Virus record (IMG/VR): IMGVR_UViG_3300020385_000010
Reading direction: 5' to 3' (one strand)
DNA: 64,000 nt
Source of the DNA: an uncultured virus (IMG/VR IMGVR_UViG_3300020385_000010)
Lineage: Duplodnaviria; Heunggongvirae; Uroviricota; Caudoviricetes
Part shown: positions 27,546-42,893 of the stretch, piece by piece
Numbering within the stretch: the stretch's first letter is position 1
Layout: each line of letters starts with the position of its first letter
Notes under the pieces: generated by a model
Database searches by the model: none
Told to the model about the DNA's origin: nothing
What the model saw: the letters and a program-made list of their open reading frames with translations, nothing else
Made by a program: the position numbers and the translations under genes

Positions 27546-27563
27546 AATTTTGGTTTTTTAAAA

Positions 27564-27849: not shown

Positions 27850-27851
27850 TA

Positions 27852-28148
27852 TTAAGAGTTAGGTCGTAACTCCTCTTCAAATCTATCATTAGTGTATCCA
27901 CACTGTGCAATTGGTGCAACATCTATAACTTTTATTTCGCATCCTTCTCTTTTTTGATGCTCTTTTTTAAGCCTGTTAAGCATGCTACTATTATATGCAG
28001 GGTTGTTTAACAGCTCTATGCTGTCTCCTATACTTACTTCCCTGCTGCTATGCACCTCGCATTTCTCTTTCAAGACGGTCTGCCCTCGTCTCTTTCCGTA
28101 GTACCTCACTTGGTACTTTATTAGGTTGAAGAATATTGGCATTTTCAT
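27852..28148 (-). CDS. Hypothetical protein
   Basis: 98-aa ORF. Confidence 0.55.
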   Translation of the reverse strand: MKMPIFFNLIKYQVRYYGKRRGQTVLKEKCEVHSSREVSIGDSIELLNNPAYNSSMLNRLKKEHQKREGCEIKVIDVAPIAQCGYTNDRFEEELRPNS

Positions 28149-28990: not shown

Positions 28991-29781
28991 ATCCCTCCAT
29001 AGTTAGCTTCACATTCTGAAGGCTTAGCGTTAATACATTTTTTATAATCAGATAGACCAACGCTAAAACTTATTCGGCCCTTGTCAAGAGATGTTCTACT
29101 AAGTTTATATATACCTACAGACATAGGTCCGTTCTTACTAACAGCTATAAAGTAAAAGTCTTTCATACCTGTACCGTGTAAATAGAATGCTGCTTGCTGG
29201 TATATGTTATACTTCTCAGCAAACTCTACAAACGATTCTTTATCAGTGTTTTGCATTGTCTTGACATCTACTATGTACCCGTCTTTTTCATTTATGTAAT
29301 CTATCTTAGCTTTACATAATGTTTCGTGTACTATATTTCTCCAGAAAAATATCTTTTCTGCCTCACCTCCTGATAAAAGATTCATCGCCCCTTCATGTCT
29401 TAATAAAGCTGCGTGCATAGCAGTAATTTTATTATACTGATTGGTTGTAAGTATTTCTTTTTCTCCATGCTGTTCAGCAAACTCTGCATACATTTCTTTG
29501 CCTGCCTTTGTTCGCTTGTCTACGCTAGGTGCTACAGCATACCTGCCATCAAACTCTTCGTTCTCTAACACTAAACAATGAAACGCTGAACCTATAAGGA
29601 ACGCTTCGCTTGTTGGTGTTTCTCCGTCTAGATAATAAAAGAATTCTTTAGGACATTTCTTCATTGCTACCTTAAGCATTGAGTTGGTTGCATACTTCCT
29701 GTCTGCAAAGTATGTATCATCGTTGTATATATAACTATCCTCTAAAGGTTCTACCTCTCTGCTTCCTTTTATTTGTATCAT
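28978..29781 (-). CDS. PD-(D/E)XK exonuclease, RecE/Exo VIII (DUF3799)-like
   Basis: GSAFHCLVLE, CKAKID, IVDVKT, YQQAAFY. Confidence 0.85.
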   Translation of the reverse strand: MIQIKGSREVEPLEDSYIYNDDTYFADRKYATNSMLKVAMKKCPKEFFYYLDGETPTSEAFLIGSAFHCLVLENEEFDGRYAVAPSVDKRTKAGKEMYAEFAEQHGEKEILTTNQYNKITAMHAALLRHEGAMNLLSGGEAEKIFFWRNIVHETLCKAKIDYINEKDGYIVDVKTMQNTDKESFVEFAEKYNIYQQAAFYLHGTGMKDFYFIAVSKNGPMSVGIYKLSRTSLDKGRISFSVGLSDYKKCINAKPSECEANYGGICEI

Positions 29782-30011
29782 AACAATGTGTATTTAGCTA
29801 CTGTTGTTTGTTTACGGCTACCGTCTTTGTTTGTCCAACGTGTTGCCACTTGTGCGTTTTCTGTTTGTATATTATGCCCCTCTTCTTTAAGGATGAATAT
29901 ACTTGCTGATAATCTAGTGTTACCTAAATCTCTTATTGCTTCTAAGGATGTAATACTTTTGTATTCCTTAAGGTATTCTAGTAACCTACTTTTATGTGTT
30001 TGTCTAGCCAT
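29778..30011 (-). CDS. Winged HTH protein
   Basis: ITSLEAIRDLGNTRLSASIFILKEEGHNI. Confidence 0.75.
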   Translation of the reverse strand: MARQTHKSRLLEYLKEYKSITSLEAIRDLGNTRLSASIFILKEEGHNIQTENAQVATRWTNKDGSRKQTTVAKYTLL

Positions 30012-30469
30012 TATACGTTCCCTCCATAGTTTTCGTTATTAACATCATATCTTGTTTCGCTGTCTGATTCAGATTTATTCATGTGTTTACATGATGGATT
30101 ATCTAATCCTATACCGTATTCAAGAGTAGCATCTTTAAATTTATTATCTAAAGATTGTTCCCACTTACCTGTGTTATCTTCTAACCACTCCATAGTATCT
30201 TCTAATGGTAAATCTTTAGGTAGTTCTATTGTTATCTTAGCTACCTTATGATATACTCTGCGTTCTGTAATTGTAACACTACGCATACCAAAGTTTTTTA
30301 TTTCGTTAGTTAATAAAGCTCTGTTAAGCTCAGCCATATTACTAACTTGCTTTTCAACAGGTCTGTTACGATTGTATTGTTCTATAAGAAATTCTACGTG
30401 TTCTTTACTTCTCATATTAAGTGGGTTACCTTTTTCCCACCCCCACTGTATTGGTTTATTGTTTTCCAT
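30011..30469 (-). CDS. Hypothetical protein
   Basis: 152-aa ORF coupled to its neighbours. Confidence 0.6.
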   Translation of the reverse strand: MENNKPIQWGWEKGNPLNMRSKEHVEFLIEQYNRNRPVEKQVSNMAELNRALLTNEIKNFGMRSVTITERRVYHKVAKITIELPKDLPLEDTMEWLEDNTGKWEQSLDNKFKDATLEYGIGLDNPSCKHMNKSESDSETRYDVNNENYGGNV

Positions 30470-30911
30470 TTTTTAAAACTTTAATAATTACTCCAGGATT
30501 TTCTTTATCGACTCTATAGCCACTAAAGTGTGGTACTATTATGTCGCAGTTATCATCTTCTATCCAATCATACTTAACCATAAGGTCTTGTACTGTTTGT
30601 GCTGGATTTATATAATCAAACTTTCTCTTACTGCTTCTTAAGAAAAACATATCTATATGTAAAGGTAAGTGGTGTTCGATATTTGTCCCGCCTAGTACCT
30701 TGGCGACCTGTTTATCGAACTCTTCTTTAAGCTTTATATAATGTTGTTTAGTATTCTTAATGTAAGTACGAGTTGTCTTGCTGTGTATCAGCATTTTACC
30801 TGTCCACTGTTTGCTATTCTTGCTTGACGGGACGTTGTAAGGAATATATATACCTTTAATTGATTGATTCATGTGGGTCTGGGATATAAACTTGTAACTC
30901 TTCAGCGGCAA
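30456..30911 (-). CDS. RusA-like Holliday junction resolvase
   Basis: VPSSKN, RKFDYIN..QTVQDL...IEDDN, DKENPGV. Confidence 0.75.
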   Translation of the reverse strand: MPLKSYKFISQTHMNQSIKGIYIPYNVPSSKNSKQWTGKMLIHSKTTRTYIKNTKQHYIKLKEEFDKQVAKVLGGTNIEHHLPLHIDMFFLRSSKRKFDYINPAQTVQDLMVKYDWIEDDNCDIIVPHFSGYRVDKENPGVIIKVLKNGKQ

Positions 30912-31275
30912 ATTGTTTTATCTTTTCTATATAGATAATCATCTGCTTGTTATTTATTTTAGTAGTACTTTTTACTGTGTCATACAGCTTACCATTAACT
31001 TCTTTTTTAGTTCTTAAGTAAAGACCTTTCATTAATTCATGAGTGTCATCTTTGTTGAACCCTGTGTATTCTGATAATAGCTTTATAACTACACCCCAAT
31101 AATATTGATTTAGTGGGTTGCTTCTGTTTGGTTGGTACTCTTTCATAGTTACTTCTATTGCTTTGCCTTCGTATCTTTTAGCGTCCTCAAGAAATCTATC
31201 TTTATGTTTAAAGGTAACTCTTCCATCTATTACAGATGCTAAATGTTTTAACTTCATAATAAAATTGTACGACAA
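30856..31275 (-). CDS. NinB/Orf-like recombination protein
   Basis: RSNPLNQYYWG, HELMK, STTK, IPDP. Confidence 0.75.
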   Translation of the reverse strand: MSYNFIMKLKHLASVIDGRVTFKHKDRFLEDAKRYEGKAIEVTMKEYQPNRSNPLNQYYWGVVIKLLSEYTGFNKDDTHELMKGLYLRTKKEVNGKLYDTVKSTTKINNKQMIIYIEKIKQFAAEELQVYIPDPHESIN

Positions 31276-31320
31276 GCGAGAGCCTATGAATCAACATAGT
31301 ATGCCCTTGGCTTGCCGTAC
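31267..31320 (-). terminator. Long hairpin downstream of the SSB-like gene
   Basis: Minus strand GTACGGCAAGC...GCTTGTCGTAC (one G-U pair) followed by AATTTT. Confidence 0.45.
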
Positions 31321-31330
31321 AGTTTATATA

Positions 31331-31873
31331 TTAGAATGGTAAATCAGAACCTTGTGTAGGTGCTGAACCATTAGATTGCATGTGTGCATTGTATGCATTT
31401 TGATAAGCCACAAGGTCGTCGCCTGTTAGCGGCTTATTCATTGAAGGTGTATAAGTTAAAGGTGCACCTACTTTGCCTGACGTTTTGTAGTCAAAAGCTT
31501 TTCTTACAGTTGGTATACCCGTATCCTTATCGTTCATCCAGTATTCTCTTTCAGTTAATACTATCTGAAATTTATTACCTTTAATAGAGTTCATAGATGC
31601 AGGTACATTTTCAAATGTTGTAGCTCCTGCGTTAGTAAGAAACTTTTTAAAGATTTCTGTTCTTACCTTAGCTGCAGCTGCGCTAGTGTTAGCGTCTACA
31701 CCATTAAACTTTACATAGGACTTACTCCCACTTTCGTTTTCACATACGACCTCCACATAAGGTAGGCCGTTGTTAGTTAACTTTTCTTCAAATGACGCCA
31801 TCTTTACTGTATGTACGCCTGCTCCTAACATCGAAGTGTTAGAGACTGTTGCTGTTTTCAAGTTTGGAAACAT
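31331..31873 (-). CDS. Putative single-stranded DNA-binding protein (DUF669-like)
   Basis: OB-like N-terminus, acidic C-terminal SDLPF, directly after the Sak4-like gene. Confidence 0.7.
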   Translation of the reverse strand: MFPNLKTATVSNTSMLGAGVHTVKMASFEEKLTNNGLPYVEVVCENESGSKSYVKFNGVDANTSAAAAKVRTEIFKKFLTNAGATTFENVPASMNSIKGNKFQIVLTEREYWMNDKDTGIPTVRKAFDYKTSGKVGAPLTYTPSMNKPLTGDDLVAYQNAYNAHMQSNGSAPTQGSDLPF

Positions 31874-31890
31874 AGTTTTAATTTAATTGA

Positions 31891-32526
31891 TTATGAATAA
31901 TATTCTTCGCACTTTTCTATAACCTGTGCAAGGTCGTTATCTATATATAGCTCATCAAACATACCCATTGGGCTTTTTGCTGAGTCTTTACCTAATGACT
32001 GAGTTCTAAATCTGTGGTTCATCTTACCATCAGACAAATGATTGTCTGTAAATAAGCATACTACAAATTCTTTCTCAACACGTTTCTTCCATCTGTTACC
32101 ATCTACTGCAACAAATCTTTCTTGAACCCCGTCTTCACCATCGTAAGCTCCATCTATAGCTAAGAATATTACATTCTTATCTGTGTTCTTACTAAGGTTT
32201 AGGATACGGTCTATCTCTTTGTTATAGAATGACCACACATCAAAGCCTTTAAATCTTACATCAGCTTCTCTGTATACCATTTCTATAAGAGAGGTAAATG
32301 ATTCTACTACAATAGTATCAATGTCTTTAGATGTCATAGCTTTATCTAAAGCTGCATTGAATGTATTTAAATCAGGTACAGGTACATTCTTGAATTTGTT
32401 TGCACCTCTAAATGGTAGTTGTTTTCTTTCTGTATTTAATACAGCTGTTCTTTCTGCGTTTAAATTACGCAAGGATGTTGACTTACCTGAGCCACTCTTT
32501 CCTACTACAATAATGTTTGGTTTCAC
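31891..32526 (-). CDS. AAA_24/Sak4-like ATPase (recombinase)
   Basis: Walker A GKSGSGKST, IVVES, AKSPMGMF..YIDNDL. Confidence 0.85.
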   Translation of the reverse strand: MKPNIIVVGKSGSGKSTSLRNLNAERTAVLNTERKQLPFRGANKFKNVPVPDLNTFNAALDKAMTSKDIDTIVVESFTSLIEMVYREADVRFKGFDVWSFYNKEIDRILNLSKNTDKNVIFLAIDGAYDGEDGVQERFVAVDGNRWKKRVEKEFVVCLFTDNHLSDGKMNHRFRTQSLGKDSAKSPMGMFDELYIDNDLAQVIEKCEEYYS

Positions 32527-32756
32527 TTTTCTTTTGTTTTTAGTTGTAAATAATCTTCTACTGTTAATTTGTCTTCCCGTCTTTTGCCTGCTCTTTTACT
32601 GCAAACAAACTTCATATATCCACGTATCATAACTAACTTATCTTCAGAGAGTTGATTGTCTATCTCTGTAAAAGTTTCATTAATAACTTGTTTGATAATG
32701 CTTTGGGAAACGTTAAGCTCTTTAGCTATGTCAGCTATGATTTCATTAGTGGTCAT
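32523..32756 (-). CDS. HU/IHF-like DNA-binding protein
   Basis: MTTNEIIADIAKEL...VMIRGYMKF. Confidence 0.75.
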   Translation of the reverse strand: MTTNEIIADIAKELNVSQSIIKQVINETFTEIDNQLSEDKLVMIRGYMKFVCSKRAGKRREDKLTVEDYLQLKTKEK

Positions 32757-32776
32757 TACTAGTTCATTTGGTCTTC

Positions 32777-32784
32777 CAAAGATA
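32777..32784 (-). promoter_or_regulatory. Bacteroidota -7 element
   Basis: TATCTTTG on the minus strand, about 20 nt before the HU-like start. Confidence 0.55.
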
Positions 32785-32794
32785 CAAAAAATTG

Positions 32795-34099
32795 TTAATA
32801 AAAACCAACATCTTCATCTATTTCTTTGAACTTGGTAAGGAAATCTACAAAGTGTAAGAACCTACTACCTACACCTATATTTCTACCTTTAGCAAATATA
32901 ATTTCTGCTAAACCTTTGACGCTCTGACCTTTCTCGTCTTCTTCAAACCCATAGTATTCTGGTCTGTATACAAGCGTAACTACATCAGCTGCCTGCTCTA
33001 TCTCACCTGACTCACGCAAATCTCCAAGCGTAGGTCTACAGCCTTGTCGTTTTTCTACACCTCTTGATAGCTGTGATAATGCTATAACAGATATGTCTAA
33101 CTCTTTAGCTATATTTTTAAGGGAACGAGCTATAACAGATACCTCCTGCTCTCTGTTCCTACCTTTAGCGTGGTTACTAACCAACTGCAGATAATCAATC
33201 ATCACTAGCTTTACCTTTTTAGTAATTACATACTGCCTTATTCTATTTAACAGGTAACGCAAGCTTGTTTTGCTGCACTCATCTATATATAAAGGTAACT
33301 TCTCTAGGCTAGCCATGTTCTTATGAATCAATGACCATTCATTGTCTGAGATGTTACCCTCCATTAGTTTTTTATTACTAATTTCTGCACTACTAGAGAT
33401 TAATCTTTTAACCATCTGATTAGTAGACATTTCATATGAGAATACAGCAGTAGGTATACCTGATACTGCAGCATTGTAAGCAAAAGCTAAAGCAAGACTT
33501 GTCTTACCCATAGATGAAGCACCACCTACTATAACTAAGTCCTGCTTTTTCCATCCACCTGTAAATTCATCTAAGTTCTGAAAGCCTGTAGGTATACCAG
33601 TAATACCTTTGGTTGAACAGCTTACCTCTATTTCTTGTACAGCACTTTTAATATGGTCTACCATATCTTTAATACCTGTATAAGTAGTTGAGTCTAAAGA
33701 GTTAACAGACTTTATTAAATCATCTATAGGTTGAGATGTTATATCCTTATAAGCATCATTTATATATTTAGTGCAACACTCGTAAAGAGTTTTCTTCTTG
33801 GCGTTGTTAGATAATGTGCTTATAATTTTATCTATGTTTGTAAAATAAGAATCAGTTGATATAACTGAAGCTATAACATAGGCAATGTTATCTATATGTT
33901 TTAGATGTTCAGCAGCTTTAATGTAATCAAAGGTGTTACCCTGCTGGTACTCAGCATCTATATGAAGATATAAAGCTTTGTATATAGGGTCGTCAAATAT
34001 AGAAGCTGATAGAATATCACAATTGTCGTAATATAAACTTCTTTTGTTTACAAGTATACTAAGAAGTTGCTTTTCTAAACTGACGCTATCTTGTTTCAT
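32795..34099 (-). CDS. dnaB: Replicative DNA helicase
   Basis: GIPTGF, GASSMGKT, IDYLQL, LSQLSR, DLRESGEIEQAAD, AKGRN. Confidence 0.95.
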   Translation of the reverse strand: MKQDSVSLEKQLLSILVNKRSLYYDNCDILSASIFDDPIYKALYLHIDAEYQQGNTFDYIKAAEHLKHIDNIAYVIASVISTDSYFTNIDKIISTLSNNAKKKTLYECCTKYINDAYKDITSQPIDDLIKSVNSLDSTTYTGIKDMVDHIKSAVQEIEVSCSTKGITGIPTGFQNLDEFTGGWKKQDLVIVGGASSMGKTSLALAFAYNAAVSGIPTAVFSYEMSTNQMVKRLISSSAEISNKKLMEGNISDNEWSLIHKNMASLEKLPLYIDECSKTSLRYLLNRIRQYVITKKVKLVMIDYLQLVSNHAKGRNREQEVSVIARSLKNIAKELDISVIALSQLSRGVEKRQGCRPTLGDLRESGEIEQAADVVTLVYRPEYYGFEEDEKGQSVKGLAEIIFAKGRNIGVGSRFLHFVDFLTKFKEIDEDVGFY

Positions 34100-34514
34100 C
34101 TTTACTTCTATTTAAAGTTACTGATTTAGGTTTAACAAATGGCGTTTCATCTGTCCATCGCTCATTCTTTATCCATCTTACAGCATCCTGAAACTGTGGA
34201 CTAAACTCTTTCTGTTGTTCTAGATATTGCTTGTACTTTTTCTGCATATCTAGCTGAAGAATAATTTCTTCAAACAAAACTTTATCAGGATTTAGTTTAT
34301 TCCACTGCTCTTTTGCCTGCTTTTTAAGCCGTTTAAGAGGATATTCTTTCCAAAATGTATCAAAAGACTGTGTAAGCCACTGCTTATCTCTGCTGTTTGC
34401 TTTATCTTTCTTAAGAACCTTAACCGCATTTATAACAATGGGGTTATTAGGGTCATAGATAAGCAATAGCCGTACACAATCTTTCAATGCATTTATAATA
34501 CTTAGTTCAGACAT
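34086..34514 (-). CDS. Phage replication initiator-like protein (C-terminal domain)
   Basis: FDTFWKEYP.K..K..A..QW.KL...RWIKNERWTDE; immediately upstream of dnaB. Confidence 0.65.
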   Translation of the reverse strand: MSELSIINALKDCVRLLLIYDPNNPIVINAVKVLKKDKANSRDKQWLTQSFDTFWKEYPLKRLKKQAKEQWNKLNPDKVLFEEIILQLDMQKKYKQYLEQQKEFSPQFQDAVRWIKNERWTDETPFVKPKSVTLNRSKDETR

Positions 34515-35401
34515 ATACCTTTATCAACTAATTCTTTAATAATCATGTTAAAAGCTTTCTTAGTAAAAGCCTGTGAGCTACCTGTAAGCATTTCGTAGTC
34601 AGAACTATGGTTGGTTTCATACTCATGCGTTAGATAGTGCGTAAGACCATTAAACAAGCCGTAGTAATTATTACCTTTACTTTCTGTTTCAACCCAAATA
34701 CTTTCTGTTAGCTTTTCACGCCTAGCTATAGTAGTACGACGCACATTTTTAATGTCTGTCTTTGCTACAATATCCATAAACTTAGACTTGAAATCATCAG
34801 AGTATGTATGGTCAGCCATGATAGTGAATAACCTTAACAAGCCGTCTGCATTTCTTTTTATCAAACCATTCAGCTTTTGTGTTACATCGCTTGATATTTG
34901 CTTTGTATGTTTAAGCACATGGTTGTTGTCAACATCAGCCATTAGTGTAGCAAACATGTTAGAACAACTATGCATACGTGTTGATATACCATATGTAAGT
35001 CGCTGACTACCATCATGAGAAGATAGTGCGTAAAGGTATAAATCCATAGAGTCAGATGCAAATGGTATGTCTATAACGTTTGTTAGCTTGATAAAGAAGA
35101 ATACCTTTTTACCACCTCCAAACATACCACATTTAGATTGACTTAAATCATATGTGTCAGGGTTTAATCTATCTATAATGCTATCTAACAGCTCTTCATT
35201 CTGTTTGATAGTATACTTGCTACCTACTGGGCTAAGAGCTTTCCCTGTTTTATCATTTACTGTACATGAAAAATCTGTATCATATGTGCCATCGTATACA
35301 CCTATGTATTGCATTTTACGTTTGCTAACGGTAAAGTCTAACCCTCCGCTAGCTAATAATTCTTCTTTATTCATCTGTGTTTTCTCTAATTGTTTCTTCA
35401 A
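34502..35401 (-). CDS. DUF932 family protein
   Basis: GLDFTV, VGSKY..KQNEE, GGKKVF, SHDGS, CSN, KHT, FNGLTHY. Confidence 0.8.
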   Translation of the reverse strand: MKKQLEKTQMNKEELLASGGLDFTVSKRKMQYIGVYDGTYDTDFSCTVNDKTGKALSPVGSKYTIKQNEELLDSIIDRLNPDTYDLSQSKCGMFGGGKKVFFFIKLTNVIDIPFASDSMDLYLYALSSHDGSQRLTYGISTRMHSCSNMFATLMADVDNNHVLKHTKQISSDVTQKLNGLIKRNADGLLRLFTIMADHTYSDDFKSKFMDIVAKTDIKNVRRTTIARREKLTESIWVETESKGNNYYGLFNGLTHYLTHEYETNHSSDYEMLTGSSQAFTKKAFNMIIKELVDKGICLN

Positions 35402-35555
35402 TAACTGATTCTTGTGCCTGTATTTCTTTATACCATTGCTCTTCCTGCTCTCTTCTTTCTGCTTCTATAAGCATTGCGTCTACATAATGCTTTTCGTATA
35501 AATATTCTAGGCGTGCTTCTTCTTGCTCAATGGCAAGGTCTTTCATTCTACCCAT
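35367..35555 (-). CDS. Small acidic protein
   Basis: Starts MGRMKDLAIE; 62 aa. Confidence 0.6.
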   Translation of the reverse strand: MGRMKDLAIEQEEARLEYLYEKHYVDAMLIEAERREQEEQWYKEIQAQESVIEETIRENTDE

Positions 35556-35688
35556 TCTTAATAATTTTTTCAGCTTCTATTATAGCTCGTTCATACTTCT
35601 TCCATTTCTTGCTACCTATTTTCATTACATCAAACCTTACAGTGCTGACCATATTTAATAGGATACTAATAACTTCTTTCTGTGTCAT
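35548..35688 (-). CDS. 46-aa hypothetical protein (not in the ORF track)
   Basis: MTQKEVISILLNMVSTVRFDVMKIGSKKWKKYERAIIEAEKIIKNG; fills the gap. Confidence 0.55.
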   Translation of the reverse strand: MTQKEVISILLNMVSTVRFDVMKIGSKKWKKYERAIIEAEKIIKNG

Positions 35689-35690
35689 GA

Positions 35691-36545
35691 TTAAAATATA
35701 TATCTAATTGTGTTCCAAGGTATTACACTAGAATGCAAGTCTTTAAACTGTTGTATGTATTTAGACTTTAAGCCTAACTTGTATCTAATGTTAGTACCAC
35801 CGTATTGTGAAGTTTTAGTTTCTTGAATGTCTGGTCTCCATAAATGTTGTTCAGCATCTTTATGATTAACTAAATTGTTTTTATGTTTACCTTCGTTGTG
35901 TGTAAGAAATATAACTTCAGCTTTAACCTTGTCTTTGTTGCTAACATAATAGTTAACAGTGTTAAACAAGTCTTCGTAATCCTTTAGCCAATTGTCGTAT
36001 ACAATGACAGGACTAAAGTTAATATGTACATCATAACCTGCAGCTATAAAGAAATCTATAGCTTGTATTCTATCTATTATCTTAGATGTATTAGGTTCGT
36101 GTATGTCAGACATATTCTGTGGCATAAGGCTAAATCTAATTCTAACTTTACCTTGCGGGTCGTAATCTGAAAGCCTTTTGTTTACATATTTAGTAGCAAA
36201 ACTACCCATTGCAATAGGATGATTCTTAAAGAAATCAAATATGCTTGGCCAATTATAATACCTGGCATGCAGTGCAAAGTCTTCGTTACAACTGATGTCG
36301 TATGTAGTATACTCTGCATGTGTTTGATTAGGTTTATCTACTGGTGTAAAGTATGCATGATTGTTTATTTCTGTAAGTATATCGTTTATATTTGTAGCTA
36401 CAGTTAAACCATCAGGTTTGTGTCGCTTCATATAACAATATGAACAATTATATAAACAACCATAGCCAAAAGATGGAGATATAAAATCTGTACTTCGACC
36501 TGACTTTCTAATTGTAAATGTTTTTCTTGTTACTTTTTCTACCAT
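35691..36545 (-). CDS. Spore photoproduct lyase-like radical SAM enzyme
   Basis: GCLYNCSYCY, FATKYVN, RIRFSLMP, EPNTSKIIDRI, GYDVHINFSPVI; start probably MVEKV at 36545. Confidence 0.85.
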   Translation of the reverse strand: MVEKVTRKTFTIRKSGRSTDFISPSFGYGCLYNCSYCYMKRHKPDGLTVATNINDILTEINNHAYFTPVDKPNQTHAEYTTYDISCNEDFALHARYYNWPSIFDFFKNHPIAMGSFATKYVNKRLSDYDPQGKVRIRFSLMPQNMSDIHEPNTSKIIDRIQAIDFFIAAGYDVHINFSPVIVYDNWLKDYEDLFNTVNYYVSNKDKVKAEVIFLTHNEGKHKNNLVNHKDAEQHLWRPDIQETKTSQYGGTNIRYKLGLKSKYIQQFKDLHSSVIPWNTIRYIF

Positions 36546-36562
36546 AGTTAAAGATTTAATAA

Positions 36563-36652
36563 TATATAATAGGCGCACATCTAATTTGTCAGGCTCGCAC
36601 TAGTGAGACGGTCTTAAAAGAAGGTACACTACCTCTTCTTACCTATTATATA
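36563..36652 (-). promoter_or_regulatory. Multibranch stem-loop in the leader of the SPL-like gene
   Basis: 11-bp perfect closing stem TATATAATAGG/CCTATTATATA with two internal hairpins. Confidence 0.45.
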
Positions 36653-36653
36653 A

Positions 36654-38084
36654 TCATAAGGTATTACCAAACTTCTTAGCTCTGTTCTGGCAATATGACC
36701 AGACAGATTCGTAAAGCTTGTCGTTCAAACTATATCTAATAACTTCATGTAAAGACAATTTAGTTTTAGACATACCTGATACCCAAATTCTACGCTGTTG
36801 ATTTTCAGTAAACCTTACCATTGACATACAAACTAACAACCAATTGTATATCTTATCAAAATCTGTTGTGCCACCATGAGGTCTAAACTCTACAGTATTA
36901 GTACCTGTAGTAGTAGAGTAGTTAGTCATGTTAACCCAACTGTATCTCTGACTATTGTAATGTCCGCCAGGATGATACTTTTTCTTATTGTAATCTTTAT
37001 TTATAGCATAGCCTGTAAGAAACTTACCTAACTTATCTTTGTAGTTATGAAAGTCTATTTCATTTACATGGCTTGGTAGAAATTTACAATAAGAATTGTC
37101 TTGCCTAGATGATGGAAACATTTTGAATACATCACTTTGAATAGCATAAGATAATCTTAGCAGCATAATAGAGAAGCGTCTATTAAATATAGCTCCGCCT
37201 ATATGCACATGTACACCACAACTTCTGTCAACAAGTCCACCGCTATCTGATATATGTTCACATATATTTTTAAGCTCATGTACACCTTTGTTGCCATGAA
37301 GTACGCCTGATACATATTCTAAGCCACTGATAGAGCCGTCGTCTACAGCTTTAAGATTTAGATTACCTGTGTAACCATTGAAGTCGTTACAAGTTTCTAA
37401 TTCTACACCAAATGTGTAGTTCATACTAGACACTAGATTCTTTCTTCTATCTTTAGACTGTGTGTAAGTGTTATCAAATTTTTCATTAGAATCAGATGAG
37501 TGACAAGCACAAGGGTCTTCTTCATGATAATAACGGTCACAACAATCACTATAATAATAGTTGCAACTGTTTGCTACATCAGAGCTTACAAAGTAAGTAC
37601 CATCTTCAGCGCATATGTAATCGCAGTTTTCATGAAAGTAACCTTCTTCATTTCTACTAAAATATCCAAATATGGAGTTAGACCTAAGAATCCAAACATC
37701 TGTATTGTCTATTGATTCATCTCTAACTATATCATTAGAGCCTTCTAATTCTAACGCAAAGCAATCATCATAAACAAACACTCTTCTTGTGTATTCATCA
37801 ACCCAATTTAGAAATCTTTTACAAACATCAACTTCTACTTCGTCTAATCTTGAGAGTACATTAGTATTATTAAACAATATGCTATCCCAGATATTACTTA
37901 AAAAGCTAGCATCGTCTGTTCTTTGTCTACGATGATTAGTCATACAATCTAATAGTATATTATACTCAGCATCATTGTAACCTATCTCATCTATATCGTA
38001 TTCACGCATACTGCTTGATACATTAGATACTTGAATTGTTCTGCGAGTTGTTACAATAGAGTTTAGTGGGTTACATTCTGGCAT
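36654..38084 (-). CDS. COOH-NH2 ligase (amidoligase_2 family)
   Basis: TFGVELET, DDGSI, LEYVS, CGVHVHIG, RYSWVN, TVEFR; Cys-rich N-terminal region. Confidence 0.85.
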   Translation of the reverse strand: MPECNPLNSIVTTRRTIQVSNVSSSMREYDIDEIGYNDAEYNILLDCMTNHRRQRTDDASFLSNIWDSILFNNTNVLSRLDEVEVDVCKRFLNWVDEYTRRVFVYDDCFALELEGSNDIVRDESIDNTDVWILRSNSIFGYFSRNEEGYFHENCDYICAEDGTYFVSSDVANSCNYYYSDCCDRYYHEEDPCACHSSDSNEKFDNTYTQSKDRRKNLVSSMNYTFGVELETCNDFNGYTGNLNLKAVDDGSISGLEYVSGVLHGNKGVHELKNICEHISDSGGLVDRSCGVHVHIGGAIFNRRFSIMLLRLSYAIQSDVFKMFPSSRQDNSYCKFLPSHVNEIDFHNYKDKLGKFLTGYAINKDYNKKKYHPGGHYNSQRYSWVNMTNYSTTTGTNTVEFRPHGGTTDFDKIYNWLLVCMSMVRFTENQQRRIWVSGMSKTKLSLHEVIRYSLNDKLYESVWSYCQNRAKKFGNTL

Positions 38085-38227
38085 AACTTTAAAGTATTAT
38101 CAATTGCTTTCTTTAAATCATCTATATCCTTGTTGTTTCCAACGCGTTCTTCAAGCTTGTCTATAGCTTGAGATAATTCTTGTGCAAATTCTGAATCTGC
38201 ACAGAGTATAAGTAGTTTTTCCATCAT
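38063..38227 (-). CDS. 54-aa hypothetical protein (not in the ORF track)
   Basis: MMEKLLILCADSEFAQELSQAIDKLEERV...; fills the gap between the GATase and the ligase. Confidence 0.5.
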   Translation of the reverse strand: MMEKLLILCADSEFAQELSQAIDKLEERVGNNKDIDDLKKAIDNTLKLCQNVTH

Positions 38228-38229
38228 AA

Positions 38230-39204
38230 TTATTGGTATATTTCTTGTTCAACTAATTCTATGAACCTTTCAACTTTAGCTATGTCGTTTGAAGATATAG
38301 AATTAAATTCTTTTATTTCTTTAAACAAATCTGACACAACATCTAAGCCTTCAGCCATAACTTCATACCAATCTTCTGAATACCAGTCTATTGTATCTGT
38401 TTCTTTAACTTCAGGCTTAGTATCTTGCTTAGCTTCAGGCTCTATATTCCAAGACCTATTCCAAGCATCATCATCAGCTTTACTCCAAGAGGTTAACCCA
38501 GCTGTACCCCAACCATTATATGAAGACTGTTTTCCATAGTCATACCAATTTTTACCTTCATATTTAGGTGCAGTAACAGGTATTTTAATAGACTCAACAA
38601 GCTCACCTGTAGGACTATATACAAATAACTTATCTTTAGTTACTTCTTTTACTTTGCTTTTGTCTTCTGCAATTGCTAATAGGCCTTCTTCTAATGAGCT
38701 AAAGTATATACCTTGGTCTGTTCTTAGCCTAAACAATGGATTGTTTCTTCTATAAACATATAGTTGCCCGTCGCTTTGTGTCCAAACAGCATTGATTGTG
38801 CCGCTGTGTTTACCCAACGTTGCATAGTCATTAGTTTTATTTAATAAACTATATATAGCTTTAGAGTCAACATCTACATCGGGAAGGTTTTCTTCTTCCA
38901 GAAGCTCTTCGTAGTTACTCAACACACCATTATGCACACCGATATATTTACCGTTAACATAAGGATGAGTGTTCTCAGCAGTTTTAACACCATGAGTTGC
39001 GTAGCGTGTATGTCCAATAAACAACTCTGCATTGTTTATATCAAGCATATGTAATAAGTTACCTGATTTCTCAGTACACTTGTAGATTTTACCATCTATA
39101 AAAGCACCTGAAGAGTGACCACCACGACTGTCGTTGTCATGCATTAGATACATAAGTTTATTAATCGGTGTATCTTGCCCGATATATGCTACAATTCCAC
39201 ACAT
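38230..39204 (-). CDS. Class II (Ntn) glutamine amidotransferase
   Basis: MCGIV, RGGHSSG, GHTRYATHG, HPY, HNGVLSNY, VDSKAI. Confidence 0.92.
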   Translation of the reverse strand: MCGIVAYIGQDTPINKLMYLMHDNDSRGGHSSGAFIDGKIYKCTEKSGNLLHMLDINNAELFIGHTRYATHGVKTAENTHPYVNGKYIGVHNGVLSNYEELLEEENLPDVDVDSKAIYSLLNKTNDYATLGKHSGTINAVWTQSDGQLYVYRRNNPLFRLRTDQGIYFSSLEEGLLAIAEDKSKVKEVTKDKLFVYSPTGELVESIKIPVTAPKYEGKNWYDYGKQSSYNGWGTAGLTSWSKADDDAWNRSWNIEPEAKQDTKPEVKETDTIDWYSEDWYEVMAEGLDVVSDLFKEIKEFNSISSNDIAKVERFIELVEQEIYQ

Positions 39205-39251
39205 AATTTCTATAATTTAATTTGGTTGTTAGTTTAGGGACTGTGCATCCC

Positions 39252-39263
39252 CGTGATAGTGAA
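39252..39263 (-). promoter_or_regulatory. Repeated early-region motif TTCACTATCACG, copy 1
   Basis: Identical 12-mer at 40554-40565; 10-nt core at 41418-41427. Confidence 0.55.
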
Positions 39264-39321
39264 AAAAAATACACTAAGAGTGCGATTAGATGGTATACCA
39301 AATTCTGCACTCAAAGTGTAT
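39262..39321 (-). terminator. Intrinsic terminator-like hairpin after the ncRNA candidate
   Basis: ATACACT..GAGTGC/GCACTC..AGTGTAT followed by a T8 run on the minus strand. Confidence 0.65.
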
Positions 39322-39329
39322 GTAATAAT

Positions 39330-39715
39330 AATAACAACGCGATTTAGCAGGGAACTACCCCTAAATAGACTACCACTGGTTTTTATACCTCACAAATTCA
39401 GTATCCACTCACGGCCTTGGCAGGCTAACCTCATGCATTACTGCACCTTGGTTTACACGCATCTACGTGCCTCATCGTGACTAAGTAAAGGCAATGGTGT
39501 GCCTTGTTCAACTTAGTATGATACCTATCTACACAATTAGTTTTTTGTTTAGAACGTCTATTAATACAGTTATCCTGCTAAGGACTCGTTTACCTAAAGA
39601 TTTATAGGCAAATTTGCACGCGACTGCAACTGTATCCTTACCGACCTTGCTGGACCACAATCGTTGTAAGAACTAAATCTCCTTTACAGTTTCGAACCTG
39701 TAAAGTGTTGTTATT
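39330..39715 (-). ncRNA. Candidate large (about 390 nt) structured non-coding RNA
   Basis: 9-bp end-to-end closing stem, many nested helices, GUAA tetraloop, no credible ORF, followed by a terminator. Confidence 0.65.
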
Positions 39716-39857
39716 TTTTTAATATATCGACAATTTTGTCGAAGTTTTTTGTACATTCTTGTACTAGACTTAGAGCTTTCTTTGTAATCTTCTCTAATTC
39801 TTTTATACGTGCTTCCATAGCAAGTATTCTCTGATGGTTAAAGTCGTCATTGCTCAT
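39711..39857 (-). CDS. 48-aa coiled-coil protein (not in the ORF track)
   Basis: MSNDDFNHQRILAMEARIKELEKITKKALSLVQECTKNFDKIVDILKK; ATGA-coupled to the upstream gene. Confidence 0.55.
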   Translation of the reverse strand: MSNDDFNHQRILAMEARIKELEKITKKALSLVQECTKNFDKIVDILKK

Positions 39858-40276
39858 AACTTAAAATCAGCTGTAATTAAACCTGTATCAGGATGAACAG
39901 TAATAACTGTACCGTTATCGTATCTTGCAATGAAAGGTTTCTTTGCATCTACTCTACCTGTACGAATAGATGGATATGTAGGTCCAACTTCAGGCATAGC
40001 TACTATATTAGTGCGACTGCTTGCTTTTAACTTGTTGTTAATTTTAGCTGTCTTTGCCTTATCCTTTGGACCTTTAACAAGCTTGTAATACAATTGCGAA
40101 TACGCTTTATCGTAATGCTTGTTGTTTTTCTTGTTAATAGTACGTTTAATGATACGTGGTTGTAAATCGTCTACCGATTGAGGTATAATCTCTTTACCAT
40201 TCTTTTTAATGTGTACTCTGTTTTTTTGGAAGTTCTTGAGTATCTGCTGAACAACCATTTCTTTAGTTATTTTCAT
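39854..40276 (-). CDS. Basic hypothetical early protein
   Basis: 140-aa ORF, ATGA coupling. Confidence 0.6.
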   Translation of the reverse strand: MKITKEMVVQQILKNFQKNRVHIKKNGKEIIPQSVDDLQPRIIKRTINKKNNKHYDKAYSQLYYKLVKGPKDKAKTAKINNKLKASSRTNIVAMPEVGPTYPSIRTGRVDAKKPFIARYDNGTVITVHPDTGLITADFKL

Positions 40277-40491
40277 ATCTTCAATAATTTAGCTTCAAGT
40301 TTGTTCATTTGCTTAGTACCTAAAGACCTTGTTGGTTCCTGCATATAATCTCTTATACCTCTTGCAGTACTAATTTGTTCTTGATACGCAGCATTGCGTT
40401 CAGCTGCTTCCTGTTGCTTTTCTCTTTTACGAACAGCAAACTTTCCGTTACCTGAGTAACGATACATTACTTTTTTTTCTAATCCGACCAT
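40273..40491 (-). CDS. Hypothetical early protein
   Basis: 72-aa ORF. Confidence 0.55.
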   Translation of the reverse strand: MVGLEKKVMYRYSGNGKFAVRKREKQQEAAERNAAYQEQISTARGIRDYMQEPTRSLGTKQMNKLEAKLLKI

Positions 40492-40553
40492 AAGGCTTTC
40501 AATTTAGAGTTAATTAATATTAAAATGATAATCTTTGTGAAACTACTCTGCAT

Positions 40554-40565
40554 CGTGATAGTGAA
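40554..40565 (-). promoter_or_regulatory. Repeated early-region motif TTCACTATCACG, copy 2
   Basis: Intergenic; like copy 1 it is followed by (G)ATGCA on the minus strand. Confidence 0.55.
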
Positions 40566-40652
40566 TTCGGCTGAGGCGTGGGCTGTGTCGTGTGCCTGCC
40601 TCAAGCAGACATTATATGTGAGCTTGCGAACTCCTAAAGAAGATACATTAGT

Positions 40653-40683
40653 AAAAAAAAGTAGGGCGTGTTTCAGCCCTACT
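40653..40683 (-). terminator. Intrinsic terminator
   Basis: AGTAGGGC/GCCCTACT stem followed by a T run on the minus strand, right after the stop at 40688. Confidence 0.75.
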
Positions 40684-40687
40684 AATA

Positions 40688-41314
40688 TTATCTACGAATA
40701 ATAGCTCTCTTACGTGTGTTAGAGTTACCATTATTTTCATTATTCATACGCTCTGCATATTTAGCATCAGCAAGATGAACTTTACCGTTACGGGTTGCAA
40801 ATACACCGATAGAATAATCTATGCTACACATATATTTACAATAGCTATCAAAATCATTGACCTCGTCAATGTGAGTTGGATAGCTTAATCCTGCTTGACT
40901 AAAGATAGCATAAAGCTTTTTGATAGATGCATCTAATATTTTATAATCAGATAAGCTATCAAAGGTTTCGTGCTTTTCTATAAAACCGTCCCTTGTTTTA
41001 TCAAGGTATGCTACAGAGAGTGGAAACTCTTTGTTATAGGCTTTATAATCTGCATTAGTCTTTGGTAAATCTTTATGATTCATAAAGATAAATGTGTCTG
41101 TTATATTTGTAAGGCCTTGGCCGTTAAATATAATAGACTGATTAAAGGTATTTTTAGCATTATCTAAAGATGGAAATCTAAAGTTAAAGACTGTGTTACC
41201 TTTATCGGTTAAAGCAATTGAATTTAAAACTGCTTTGTGCGTCCCTACATGTTCAGTTGTTAGTTGAGACGGAATGAGTGCGTTGCACTCCATTGGTTTT
41301 TCGGTTCTTTTCAT
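40688..41314 (-). CDS. Hypothetical early protein
   Basis: Start probably MKRTEK at 41314 (the track extends to 41371). Confidence 0.6.
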   Translation of the reverse strand: MKRTEKPMECNALIPSQLTTEHVGTHKAVLNSIALTDKGNTVFNFRFPSLDNAKNTFNQSIIFNGQGLTNITDTFIFMNHKDLPKTNADYKAYNKEFPLSVAYLDKTRDGFIEKHETFDSLSDYKILDASIKKLYAIFSQAGLSYPTHIDEVNDFDSYCKYMCSIDYSIGVFATRNGKVHLADAKYAERMNNENNGNSNTRKRAIIRR

Positions 41315-41432
41315 AATTGAAAGAAAGATTAAATTAATAAAAGCTTTGCATCTAACAACACAAAGCAACAAACATTACTTGGAAGAAAGCCTGCTTTAGC
41401 AGGCAAAAAAAGAAGAGGTGATAGTGACTACG

Positions 41433-41681
41433 CTATTGATTGCGTAGTCTTATCAAATCTCTTTTATGGTTGGCATTCTCTTGCTGAAGCCTGTCGCAGT
41501 TATCTAAAATCTTTTTTTGGATAGATTTTAGTGCAACGACTTGTTGTTGCAGAGATGCAACCTCGTCGTGATTTAGACGAATGTCGTGTGCACGCTTTAG
41601 GCGTGTGTACGCGACACTATAAATCACATTAGCTATTAACAAGCTAAAGAAACAAATTTGAGTGAAAGCTAATTCAGACAT
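41433..41681 (-). CDS. Small TM plus coiled-coil early protein
   Basis: 82 aa; first gene of the minus-strand arm. Confidence 0.55.
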   Translation of the reverse strand: MSELAFTQICFFSLLIANVIYSVAYTRLKRAHDIRLNHDEVASLQQQVVALKSIQKKILDNCDRLQQENANHKRDLIRLRNQ

Positions 41682-42600
41682 AATAAAAAGTTTATGATTA
41701 ATAATTAACCAAGGCTTAAGGGCATAGCTTGAGTGCTATGATACCCTACCCTTGGTAGTACAGCTTGCTTTTCAGGCGTACTAAACCCCTATTCAATGTA
41801 CCAATTGAAATTTATGTACCCCTGCAGAGGTGGTGCTTGGTTGGAGCACTCTTACTTTATTTATATTAGATTGGAAATAAAAGAATAAGCTACTAACATG
41901 CGAAGCACTCTCGTGTATACTTTAGCCTGCTTATTCTTTTTTAATATTGTTTGCAAAAGAGATAGCTTTAGCTATCAGCACTTATGATAGTGGATAACTT
42001 TATAGCTGTTGCAATGTTTTAAATGATACGCAAGTATCATAATAGCGACGTGAGTCGCTTGACAATGTCAATTATTTGTTGTAACTTTGGTGGGTAAGTG
42101 GATAAGCATGCAGGTTAGCTACTGCAAACTATTAAATGTAACAAGCCACGCAAGACACAACAAATAACAGATGGAAAGAGAGCCTGCTTGCAGGCGACAG
42201 ACTGTTAATCAGTTGATAGTTAGCAAGATAGCACGGAAGCTTGCTGTAGAGCTAACGCAGATAACATAAGAAATGGTACTGATATTGGCTGATATGGATG
42301 TAAAGGTGTGTAGGAAGATGTTCGTACACACACATTCACGAACAGATTTAGTATTACCTAAAGCTGTGGTAGAGCTGTTAGTTTAGGACGAAGCGTAGGC
42401 AAAGGAAGCCGACAGAGCTTTTTGTAGCAAACCCGTAGGGGTTGAGAAAAAAACGACAGAGGCGGGGGAGTTATCACATAGACATCCGTATTTATACAGC
42501 AATAAAAAATTTTAGGGGGGTGGGGTGTGTACTTTTCTCTCAGAATAATTCTAAAAAAATTTTACTATGTTTGTAGCATTAACTTTAATAAAGGATAGCT
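41682..42600. other. Large divergent non-coding control region (candidate origin, genome end or early promoters)
   Basis: About 0.9 kb without ORFs; more than ten hairpins, two TTATCCACT 9-mers, G-runs, TAnnTTTG at 42082 and 42566. Confidence 0.6.
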
Positions 42601-42789
42601 ATGCATAATAAGAAAGTAAAGAAAGGTAAGTTTAAAGCCAAGGTTAAGAAGGTAGCTCAGAAGGTTAAGAACAAGTTCAGAGAGGTTGTAACAAAAGATA
42701 CCACACGTCCAGTAGTAAATACTCTACTTAAGTATAAGAAAGGTGGTATGATGTCTTACAAGAAAGGCGGTACAATCCAACACGACTAG
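42601..42789 (+). CDS. Small basic protein with YKKGG repeats
   Basis: 62 aa; preceded by TATGTTTG (42566-42573) and followed by a terminator-like hairpin. Confidence 0.65.
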   Translation: MHNKKVKKGKFKAKVKKVAQKVKNKFREVVTKDTTRPVVNTLLKYKKGGMMSYKKGGTIQHD

Positions 42790-42833
42790 AATATAATAAT
42801 ACATTAATATTAAGGTTTGGTTTTTTTGGTTGT

Positions 42834-42870
42834 AAGAGGGAGTGAAGCTTAGGTGGTAGCTCCCTTTTTC
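42834..42870 (+). terminator. Intrinsic terminator
   Basis: AGGGAG...CTCCCT followed by TTTTC. Confidence 0.55.
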
Positions 42871-42893
42871 TATTCTATTAATTTTTAATATCT

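What the first reader, a model, noticed from the sequence alone, without database searches (positions are those of the whole stretch)
39262..39715. About 390-nt highly structured non-coding RNA candidate upstream of the GATase-amidoligase operon
Seen (plus-strand coordinates): closing stem 39330-38/39707-15; helices 39682-89/39698-705, 39564-71/39628-35 (enclosing three small hairpins), 39480-86/39511-17 with 39488-93/39500-05, and TGCA-GTAA-TGCA (GNRA loop on the minus strand, 39434-45). A long-range 7-bp pairing 39364-70/39556-62 competes with a local stem 39342-47/39361-66. A terminator with T8 follows. Most G-U pairs favour the minus strand, though two favour plus. It does not read as tRNA or tmRNA. 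Inference: a large phage RNA in the spirit of ROOL/GOLLD, a ribozyme, or a switch controlling read-through into the ligase genes.
Basis: partly seen in the sequence, partly recalled or inferred. Interest (0 to 1): 0.8.

Follow-up and report, generated by a model that had tools for sequence, protein, structure and literature searches.

The report
New, probably circular, phage RNA
A marine crAss-like phage carries a gene for a 392-base, tightly folded RNA that makes no protein, belongs to no catalogued RNA family, and turns up in ocean RNA data joined end to end, so it may be a natural RNA circle.

Summary
Window 39326-39717, minus strand, is an ORF-free 392-nt element. It folds better than shuffles (z -3.95 alone, -4.71 with flanks). 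It has relatives at 83-100% identity on 5 IMG/VR contigs and 17 of 32 metagenome loci. On 14 distinct copies, 117 predicted pairs are 99.4% paired and 20 show compensatory changes (0-5 in slid controls). G-U pairs (10.7% of cells) pick the minus strand. Rfam, ARAGORN, a phage blastn, a genome-collection pattern scan and a model search of 151 Flavobacteriaceae genomes find no known or cellular relative.

Homology stops at the foot of a 12-bp closing stem. In one marine metatranscriptome a 422-nt contig joins 39326 directly to 39717. The RNA is therefore a discrete 392-nt species, most simply a circle, though a library artefact is not excluded.

In relatives it is not tied to the GATase-amidoligase genes. 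It sits beside a fast-evolving 140-aa protein family, upstream or downstream, in the early operon. The "large phage RNA" reading is supported. The read-through switch is not. A ribozyme is untested.

Function is unknown. My best guess is a stable trans-acting scaffold or decoy made early in infection.

The parts
39326..39717 (-). The 392-nt structured RNA unit: the conserved element and the head-to-tail joined unit
   Evidence: Homology to relatives covers just this span. The consensus fold has 117 pairs. The contig joint runs from 39717 to 39326 and may lie one base further on.
39707..39718 (-). 5' strand of the closing stem. It pairs with 39327-39338. It contains the TAA stop of the 48-aa ORF.
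   Evidence: 12 pairs, 88.7% of cells paired. Changes on both sides at 3 pairs: alignment columns 1/413, 3/411 and 9/405.
39327..39338 (-). 3' strand of the closing stem
39682..39705 (-). 8-bp hairpin with the invariant loop GUUCGAAA, which looks like a T-loop (the T-loop likeness is recalled, not tested)
   Evidence: 3 of 8 pairs have compensatory changes. The loop is invariant in 14 of 14 sequences.
39433..39446 (-). Hairpin capped by a GUAA (GNRA) tetraloop
   Evidence: One pair is seen as AU, GC and GU.
39414..39425 (-). Invariant hairpin GCCU-GCCA-AGGC
   Evidence: Invariant in 14 of 14 sequences
39371..39381 (-). Invariant stretch AACCAGUGGUA, mostly single-stranded. It resembles a tRNA D-loop (recalled). 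It may dock on the T-loop hairpin (inferred).
   Evidence: Invariant in 14 of 14 sequences. The docking is inference only.
39364..39370 (-). 3' strand of the long-range helix that pairs with 39556-39562 and closes the 3' domain
   Evidence: helix 10, 100% of cells paired
39262..39325 (-). Hairpin followed by T8: the likely intrinsic terminator of the early operon, outside the RNA unit
   Evidence: Sequence and fold. 94.5% identical to L005 3520-3574, which follows the 140-aa gene there.
39854..40276 (-). 140-aa basic protein (p140) with no known family. It is the usual neighbour of the RNA.
39711..39857 (-). 48-aa ORF that ends inside the first bases of the RNA unit. It is seen only in near-identical copies.
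38230..39204 (-). Class-II glutamine amidotransferase, the first gene after the terminator. It is not linked to the RNA in relatives.

Best explanation
This is the gene for a previously uncatalogued structured non-coding RNA of a clade of marine crAss-like phages.

Making the RNA:
- It is transcribed on the minus strand as part of the early leftward operon (inferred from gene order and from the shared terminator).
- It is then released at the foot of its 12-bp closing stem as a discrete 392-nt molecule, 39717 to 39326. Shown: a head-to-tail joint exactly at these ends in one metatranscriptome contig.
- The two ends lie across the stem from each other. In one of the two readings the joint allows, they leave a 2-nt 3' overhang.
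- The simplest reading of the joint is that the ends are ligated into a covalent circle. This would be done by a host enzyme pair (a double-strand-specific cut, then an RNA ligase) or by the RNA itself. That step is inferred.

Shape: about 20 helices, compact and multi-branched, with an invariant T-loop-like hairpin, a GNRA tetraloop and long invariant single-stranded stretches.

Function: it acts in trans as a long-lived scaffold or decoy during host takeover, possibly with the neighbouring 140-aa basic protein. This is inference. It does not regulate the GATase-amidoligase genes.
For: Real, conserved structure:
- z -4.71 and -3.95 against shuffles.
- 14 distinct homologues, 117 pairs, 99.4% of 1638 cells paired.
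- 20 pairs and 69 cells with changes on both sides. Shuffles give 9.9 and 19.4 (0 of 500 reach the observed values). Slid controls give 0-5 pairs and 33-40% paired.

Strand: 10.7% of the cells are G-U.

Not coding: only short ORFs, and several 1-2-nt indels plus an 18-nt hairpin insertion among the homologues.

New family:
- 0 Rfam matches at gathering score over the window. Only 3 far-below-threshold matches at E up to 10.
- 0 tRNA or tmRNA genes.
- No blastn match in 50,697 phage records.

Discrete unit:
- Similarity to every relative starts and stops at the closing stem.
- Contig record 7 of run X2 (422 nt) reads 39542-39717 and then 39326-39571, with no letters in between.
- 422 = 392 + 30. 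That is what a closed cycle gives in an assembly with 31-letter words. The word length is recalled, not from a call.

Cassette-like behaviour: RNA identity does not track the neighbour's identity to the window.
- L084: RNA 95.6%, p140 47.5%
- L083: 88.7% and 39%
- L100: 85.5% and 64%
- L005: 84% and 73%
The RNA lies upstream of p140 in L005, L062/L088, L100, L084 and L071. It lies downstream in the window/L069 and in L083 and L061.

Precedent: in the cultured marine crAss-like phage phi14:2, two long intergenic early transcripts are more abundant than most mRNAs and do not decline later. Their function is unknown (Drobysheva et al., bioRxiv 10.1101/2020.03.07.982082, passages read).
Against: - The joint rests on one contig in one run. 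Contigs give no depth at the joint, no strand and no ends. The tool warns that an RNA library can hold DNA. The joined form was not looked for in DNA runs.
- In run X4 a contig joins the RNA to the genomic upstream flank of an L078-like relative, matching 29 of 30 letters. Flank-attached forms therefore also exist.
- The family is shallow (83-100% identity). A scan of all column pairs found 187 perfectly compatible covarying pairs, and only 18 of them lie in the structure. Relatedness alone therefore produces much apparent covariation.
- The window encodes no RNA ligase, RtcB, RNase III or reverse transcriptase among the 61 ORFs scanned.
- The p140 link may be plain synteny. Of 11 p140 loci in IMG/VR, 8 lack the RNA.
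- p140 has no informative fold match: 0 Foldseek matches at E <= 0.001, best VIA Z 3.8.
- Nothing here tests a function.
Confidence: 0.6

Rival explanations
1. The RNA is a stable but linear processed RNA. The head-to-tail joint is made in the tube, for example by reverse-transcriptase template switching between copies or by ligation during library preparation. The joint then marks the two true ends and no circle exists in cells.
For: Only one contig in one run shows the joint. Two other windows of this scan also reported abundant viral ncRNAs joined head-to-tail in metatranscriptomes. That could mean a general artefact of abundant small RNAs (unchecked notes). RNAs whose ends are held together by a stem are easy substrates for ligases (established knowledge, recalled).
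Against: The joint is exact, with no extra letters between the two sides (table 5c). Template switching usually leaves untemplated bases (recalled). The library description names no ligation-based protocol, but it is uninformative.
Confidence: 0.27
2. It is a mobile, ORF-less intron-like element, either of a new class or too far from groups I and II to recognise. It splices itself out of the operon transcript and circularises. The conserved fold is then the splicing core, not a trans-acting function.
For: - It is a discrete cassette whose boundaries equal the RNA ends.
- It sits at different positions relative to p140.
- Its identity is out of step with the flanking gene.
- It shows a circular junction.
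- Introns are common in crAss-like phages. One terminase match is split and annotated with a LAGLIDADG protein.
Against: - No Rfam group I or II match even at E up to 10.
- The unit ends in A or U, not G. The base before it is A, not U. It does not start with GUGYG (boundary rules recalled).
- It never interrupts a reading frame in the contexts seen. Splicing would therefore not be under selection, yet the fold is strongly conserved.
- Reading across the removed unit in the window only adds 13 codons of terminator sequence (my reading).
Confidence: 0.1
3. It is a cis-acting leader or switch: a riboswitch or attenuator for the GATase-amidoligase operon, or a 5' leader of the p140 gene.
For: In the window it lies just before a terminator and the GATase gene. 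In five contexts it lies 36-300 nt upstream of a p140 gene.
Against: - The GATase operon occurs without it in L002 and L004.
- It lies downstream of p140 in the window and in L083 and L061.
- No alternative terminator/antiterminator pairing is conserved.
- It is found as a separate joined unit.
Confidence: 0.03

Closest known systems
Early long non-coding RNAs of Cellulophaga crAss-like phage phi14:2 (Drobysheva et al., bioRxiv 10.1101/2020.03.07.982082; passages read)
   Same: Marine crAss-like phage with a Bacteroidota host. Long ORF-free stretches among the first early genes. Transcripts reported as more abundant than most mRNAs and persistent. Function unknown.
   Different: No sequence or model similarity to the phi14:2 region. 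One of the phi14:2 stretches is a tmRNA by ARAGORN and near-threshold Rfam. The other does not fold better than shuffles (z 0.17). Whether the paper addresses circularity was not checked; only passages around four search terms were read.
GOLLD and ROOL, large ornate phage-associated RNAs (Rfam; cryo-EM paper PMC12286853 seen as search listing and abstract only)
   Same: Several hundred nucleotides, many helices, carried by phages, no protein product, function unknown.
   Different: No match to their Rfam models. Smaller. Different hosts and habitat. Found with a head-to-tail joint. Oligomer formation not testable here.
tmRNA and tRNA-like RNAs
   Same: 5' and 3' ends pair in a stem. A hairpin loop resembles a T-loop and an invariant stretch resembles a D-loop (recalled consensus). 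About 390 nt. A related phage carries a tmRNA in its early region.
   Different: ARAGORN finds none, even when the unit is treated as circular, except junk at a 70% threshold. No Rfam tmRNA match. The T-like hairpin hangs on the 5' strand of the closing stem, not the 3' strand. There is no CCA end and no credible tag frame.
Circular RNAs from self-splicing introns (group I full-length circles; circles made by permuted group II introns). Recalled, not read here.
   Same: A discrete RNA of a few hundred nucleotides, released from a longer transcript and joined end to end.
   Different: No family match and no canonical boundary nucleotides. No conserved flanks, which a permuted intron would need. 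Not inside a gene.

Membership tests
Any Rfam 15 family (including GOLLD, ROOL, OLE, HEARO, IMES, 6S, RNase P, tmRNA and riboswitches) | Score at or above the family's gathering threshold against its covariance model | tested here: not met
   0 matches over the whole window. At E up to 10 on 39100-39900 there are only snR33 (20.5 bits, threshold 80), rli60 (19.5, threshold 60) and mir-500 (15.6, threshold 78).
tmRNA | tRNA-like domain with the T arm next to the 3' acceptor strand, plus a tag reading frame | tested here: not met
   ARAGORN finds 0 genes. Treated as circular it finds 0 at default and 80% thresholds, and only implausible calls at 70%. The T-like hairpin is on the 5' side of the closing stem.
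Group I intron | Match to the core model; the unit ends in G; the upstream exon ends in U | tested here: not met
   No Rfam match. The unit ends in ...UUAUUA and is preceded by A. The boundary rule is recalled.
Group II intron | 5' GUGYG, a domain V hairpin, and a match to the domain V/VI model | tested here: not met
   No Rfam match. The unit starts AAAAUAAC.
Small self-cleaving ribozymes (hammerhead, twister, pistol, hatchet, HDV-like, hairpin) | Match to a family model at or beside the two ends | tested here: not met
   No match in 39100-39900 at E up to 10. The flanks are not conserved among relatives.
Riboswitch or cis-regulatory leader | Fixed position upstream of the regulated gene across relatives | tested here: not met
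   Upstream of p140 in five contexts and downstream in three. The GATase operon occurs without it.
Retron or DRT-type template RNA | Adjacent reverse transcriptase | tested here: not met
   No RT domain among the 61 window ORFs scanned against Pfam. The small flanking ORFs of relatives have no such hit either.
Viroid-like or Obelisk-type RNA replicon | No DNA counterpart | tested here: not met
   The unit is encoded in the window, in 5 IMG/VR contigs and in 17 metagenome loci.
Covalently circular RNA (topology, not a family) | Junction-spanning molecules and resistance to exonuclease | tested here: inconclusive
   One contig of one run joins 39326 to 39717 exactly. No raw reads, no DNA control and no RNase R data.

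The most novel reading that the evidence does not exclude
A dsDNA phage encodes a covalently circular, ornate non-coding RNA. It is cut out and closed at the tip of its own closing stem without any recognisable intron or ribozyme. That implies either a new self-circularising RNA or an undescribed bacterial cut-and-ligate pathway exploited by phages. The circle, exchanged as a cassette between phages, serves as an exonuclease-proof effector of host takeover.
Probability: 0.4. Interest if true: 0.92.

Novelty: new variant of a known kind. Interest (0 to 1): 0.8.

Why it matters
Large structured RNAs of unknown function are rare, and each new class has taught new RNA biology. This one has three useful properties:
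- its ends are defined to within a base or two;
- its fold is supported by covariation;
- it is held in many ocean RNA data sets (17 runs of 10 studies hold part of the stretch searched).

If the circle is real, it would be, as far as my searches show, the first ornate circular RNA encoded by a tailed phage outside the intron world. The question of how bacteria or phages close RNA circles would become directly testable with a 392-nt substrate.

It also gives the unexplained early non-coding RNAs of crAss-like phages a second, better-defined example.

Tried and rejected
Searches for distant relatives:
- Eight IMG/VR scans, one metagenome scan and one genome-collection scan found only copies at 83-100% identity.
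- 4 loci, 1, 15 and all 7 were chance matches, mostly inside genes. By my own arithmetic about 28 chance hits were expected for the pattern.
- 29 of the 31 loci showed no similarity to the RNA.
- L085 keeps a second short motif after the 18-mer but nothing else.
A 130-position model of the 3' domain found nothing in 11 relatives' loci (best E 0.13). In 151 Flavobacteriaceae genomes it gave one match at E 0.0074 per genome, which is chance level.

p140:
- No Pfam or PHROG family.
- AlphaFold model with pLDDT 77.8.
- 0 Foldseek matches at E <= 0.001. Best VIA-align Z 3.8.
- ESM Atlas gave nothing usable.

Run depths:
- In X2, X4 and X6 the contigs on the RNA have higher depth figures than contigs on the flanks: 125.5 against 3.3-5.4, 16.6-36.7 against 2.3-4.1, and 4.8-19.4 against 3.1. 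In X1 they do not (3.2 against 2.4-5.8).
- In X2 nothing covers the DNA immediately beside the unit.
- The tool states that contig depths and uncovered parts cannot rank expression, so I do not count these as evidence.

Other:
- Tertiary pairs: a scan of all column pairs is swamped by relatedness.
- The window does not encode its own ligase, RtcB or RNase III.
- Comparison with the phi14:2 non-coding region 2905-3560 gave a local alignment score of 111 against 95 +/- 8 for shuffles, so no similarity.
- Literature: five searches found no paper describing this RNA or a phage-encoded circular ornate RNA. Supplements of the bioRxiv preprint are closed. They may hold the phi14:2 transcript coordinates.

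Full report
**Setting.** The window is part of a distant marine crAss-like phage.
- Its large terminase is about 28% identical to those of gut and Cellulophaga/Flavobacterium crAss-like phages.
- Two tail-ring proteins hit the Pfam families CrAss_Ring_1 and CrAss_Ring_2. A 746-aa protein ends in a type-IX secretion sorting domain, which hints at a Bacteroidota host.
- Genes from 27019 to 41681 run on the minus strand, away from a 1.2-kb ORF-poor divergent region.
- From that region the order on the minus strand is: 82-aa, 227-aa, 72-aa, 140-aa (p140, 39854-40276) and 48-aa (39711-39857) ORFs; the finding; a hairpin with T8 (39262-39325); a class-II glutamine amidotransferase that starts MCGI (38230-39204); a 54-aa ORF; an Amidoligase_2 protein; and a spore-photoproduct-lyase-like radical SAM protein.

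- The gap holds only ORFs of 37-75 aa. Its G+C is 0.42 against 0.30-0.37 around it.
- The minus strand of 39205-39720 folds to -145.1 kcal/mol against -118.2 +/- 5.7 for 100 dinucleotide shuffles (z -4.71). The plus strand gives z -2.38. The 392-nt unit alone gives z -3.95.
The exception is the proposed competing local stem.

**Relatives.**
- A blastn of the phage collection found nothing.
- Pattern scans of IMG/VR built from the RNA itself found it on five contigs, counting the window's own (checked).
- One scan of metagenome contigs with an invariant 18-mer returned 32 loci. 17 hold the RNA (15 full or nearly full, 2 cut by contig ends). 15 are chance matches.
- All copies are 83-100% identical to the window. 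In every one the similarity begins and ends at the closing stem.
- Nothing more distant turned up: not with a profile over all fetched loci, a covariance model of the 130-nt 3' domain, a pattern scan of 185,579 species genomes (7 loci, all chance) or the model on 151 Flavobacteriaceae genomes.

**Structure.**
- On 14 distinct full-length sequences (A6, 414 columns) RNAalifold predicts 117 pairs in 20 helices.
- 99.4% of 1638 cells form standard pairs. 20 pairs and 69 cells carry changes on both sides. Shuffles give 9.9 pairs and 19.4 cells, and 0 of 500 reach the observed values. Sliding the partners by 1-3 columns gives 0-5 such pairs and 33-40% pairing.
- An 18-nt insertion in one relative simply lengthens a hairpin. 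One hairpin loop is swapped for a UUCG-type loop in others.
- 176 cells in 29 pairs are G-U. They would be A-C mismatches on the other strand, so the RNA is the minus strand, the same sense as the flanking genes.
- Caution: the family is shallow. A blind scan found 187 perfectly compatible covarying column pairs, of which only 18 lie in the structure. The slid controls and the helix context carry the argument, not the raw count.
- Invariant features: an 8-bp hairpin with loop GUUCGAAA; a GUAA tetraloop; the hairpin GCCU-GCCA-AGGC; and the mostly unpaired stretch AACCAGUGGUA. The first and last resemble the T-loop and D-loop of tRNA (recalled consensus) and might form an elbow-like contact. That is conjecture.

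**Not a known family.**
- Rfam 15 gives no match at gathering scores over the whole window, and only three far-below-threshold matches at E up to 10.
- ARAGORN finds no tRNA or tmRNA, also when the unit is treated as circular.
- The boundary nucleotides are those of neither group I nor group II introns. No reverse transcriptase, RNA ligase, RtcB or RNase III is encoded among the 61 ORFs scanned.

**A discrete, probably circular molecule.**
- Seventeen marine RNA runs from ten studies hold part of 38700-40500.
- Four were laid as contigs. In run X2 a 422-nt contig reads 39542-39717 and continues without any extra letter at 39326-39571: a joint that 'goes back 392'.
- The length is 392 + 30. That is what a closed cycle gives with 31-letter assembly words (word length recalled).
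- The joint falls exactly where homology among relatives ends, at the top of the closing stem. That stem extends to 12 pairs with covariation in its outer part.
- The joint may lie one base further on. With the unit read as 39717-39326, the 5' end pairs with 39328 and leaves a 2-nt 3' overhang, the geometry of an RNase III cut (inference). Read as 39718-39327, the ends are blunt.
- No DNA contig among the 22 loci that hold the RNA (5 IMG/VR contigs, 17 metagenome loci) shows a tandem copy.
- Limits: one contig, one run, no raw reads, no DNA control, and contig depths that cannot be used to rank expression. In run X4 a contig runs from the RNA into the genomic upstream flank of an L078-like relative, so flank-attached molecules or DNA are present as well.
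- Two unchecked notes from other windows of this scan report similar head-to-tail joints for other viral ncRNAs. That fits either a general biology or a general artefact.
- I put a natural circle at roughly even odds. A discrete 392-nt species, circular or not, is considerably more likely.

**Context argues against the read-through switch.**
- Relatives L002 and L004 have the GATase, 54-aa and amidoligase genes but no RNA anywhere on their contigs.
- In L005 the RNA lies between a 225-aa gene and p140. The terminator homologue follows p140 and the GATase comes 1.6 kb later.
- The constant neighbour is the p140 family. A profile of it hits an ORF beside the RNA in 9 of the 10 distinct contexts with enough flank; L086 is the exception. 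p140 is upstream of the RNA in the window/L069, L083 and L061. It is downstream, 36-300 nt away, in L005, L062/L088, L100, L084 and L071.
- The reverse does not hold. Of 11 p140 loci in IMG/VR only 3 have the RNA.
- RNA identity and p140 identity to the window are out of step: 95.6% with 47.5%, 88.7% with 39%, 85.5% with 64%, 84% with 73%. The RNA therefore behaves as a cassette exchanged among phages.
- p140 is basic and has 31 marine relatives. It has no Pfam or PHROG family and no informative fold match.

**Precedent.**
- For the cultured marine crAss-like phage phi14:2, Drobysheva et al. (bioRxiv 10.1101/2020.03.07.982082, passages read) report two long intergenic regions among the early genes. 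They are transcribed above most genes from the first time point and do not decline. Their function is unknown.
- I fetched that region. One part (4031-4500) is called a tmRNA by ARAGORN and scores 46 bits against Rfam's threshold of 47. The other part shows no similarity to the present RNA and no excess folding.
- Abundant early non-coding RNAs may thus be a recurring trait of marine crAss-like phages. The present RNA is a new and structurally much better defined case.

**Mechanism, with odds.**
- Shown: a conserved fold, the strand, the boundaries, and a head-to-tail joint at those boundaries.
- Inferred: transcription within the early operon that ends at the shared terminator; excision at the foot of the closing stem; ligation into a circle by host enzymes or by the RNA itself; and a trans-acting role as a stable scaffold or decoy, perhaps with p140.
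- The intron-like rival is weakened because the element never interrupts a frame yet is strongly conserved. The cis-regulatory rival is weakened by its shifting position.

Noticed in passing
window 41682-42893: A 1.2-kb ORF-poor region between the two divergent gene blocks, with G+C up to 0.44. Around 42050-42100 (minus strand) it holds a stretch of about 50 nt (ACCCACCAAAG..., then a TTGACATTGTCAA palindrome). Near-copies lie in the ORF-free regions of relatives L002, L004, L111 and L116. It may be an early promoter or an origin.
   Followed up: partly
L120 (phi14:2, NC_021806) 4031-4500: ARAGORN calls a 470-nt tmRNA (tag GSSVQKLAMVA*) and Rfam tmRNA scores 46 bits (threshold 47, E 1.4e-16). 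It lies inside the long intergenic region that the phi14:2 paper reports as an abundant early non-coding RNA of unknown function. The record carries no RNA annotation there.
   Followed up: partly
L002 about 1640-1740 and L004 about 1520-1620: Two relatives that lack the RNA share a conserved ORF-free block upstream of their early genes (…CCATCTCGGCCAAGATGAGCGAGTCAATGCACCGTGCAACCC…). The differences look compensatory. This is another candidate small RNA. It has no Rfam match at E up to 0.1.
   Followed up: no
L114 about 990-1150: Just upstream of a distant p140 homologue there is a T-arm-like GGTGGTTCGATTCCATC. It is followed by ATTCTTGA, which is complementary to TCAAGAAT about 140 nt upstream. 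This looks like a tRNA-like element with a long insertion. ARAGORN calls nothing.
   Followed up: no
window 35691-39204 and 28616-28990: A GATase, a 54-aa ORF, an Amidoligase_2 protein and an SPL-like radical SAM protein form a conserved cassette, also present in L002, L004 and L005. A gamma-glutamyl cyclotransferase (GGACT) gene lies 7 kb away. Together they resemble the amidoligase peptide- or metabolite-modification systems described in phages (recalled).
   Followed up: no
window 39854-40276 and alignment A5: The last 35 or so residues of p140 come in two unrelated versions (…PFIARYDNGTVITVHPDTGLITADFKL, or …AKKLVVNLSSTMTCTIQDNGLITVDFK). They are combined with N-terminal domains of very different identity, so the protein is a mosaic.
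   Followed up: no
window 32-10132: A 3366-aa ORF with no PHROG match at E <= 1e-5, at the end of the structural block. By position and size it may be the virion-packaged RNA polymerase of crAss-like phages. Untested.
   Followed up: no
L078 723-869 and window 39711-39857: In two different contexts a 48-aa ORF ends exactly on the invariant UAA of the RNA's closing stem. tblastn with the window's 48-aa protein did not hit L078. This may be chance in AT-rich sequence, or translation may run into the stem.
   Followed up: no
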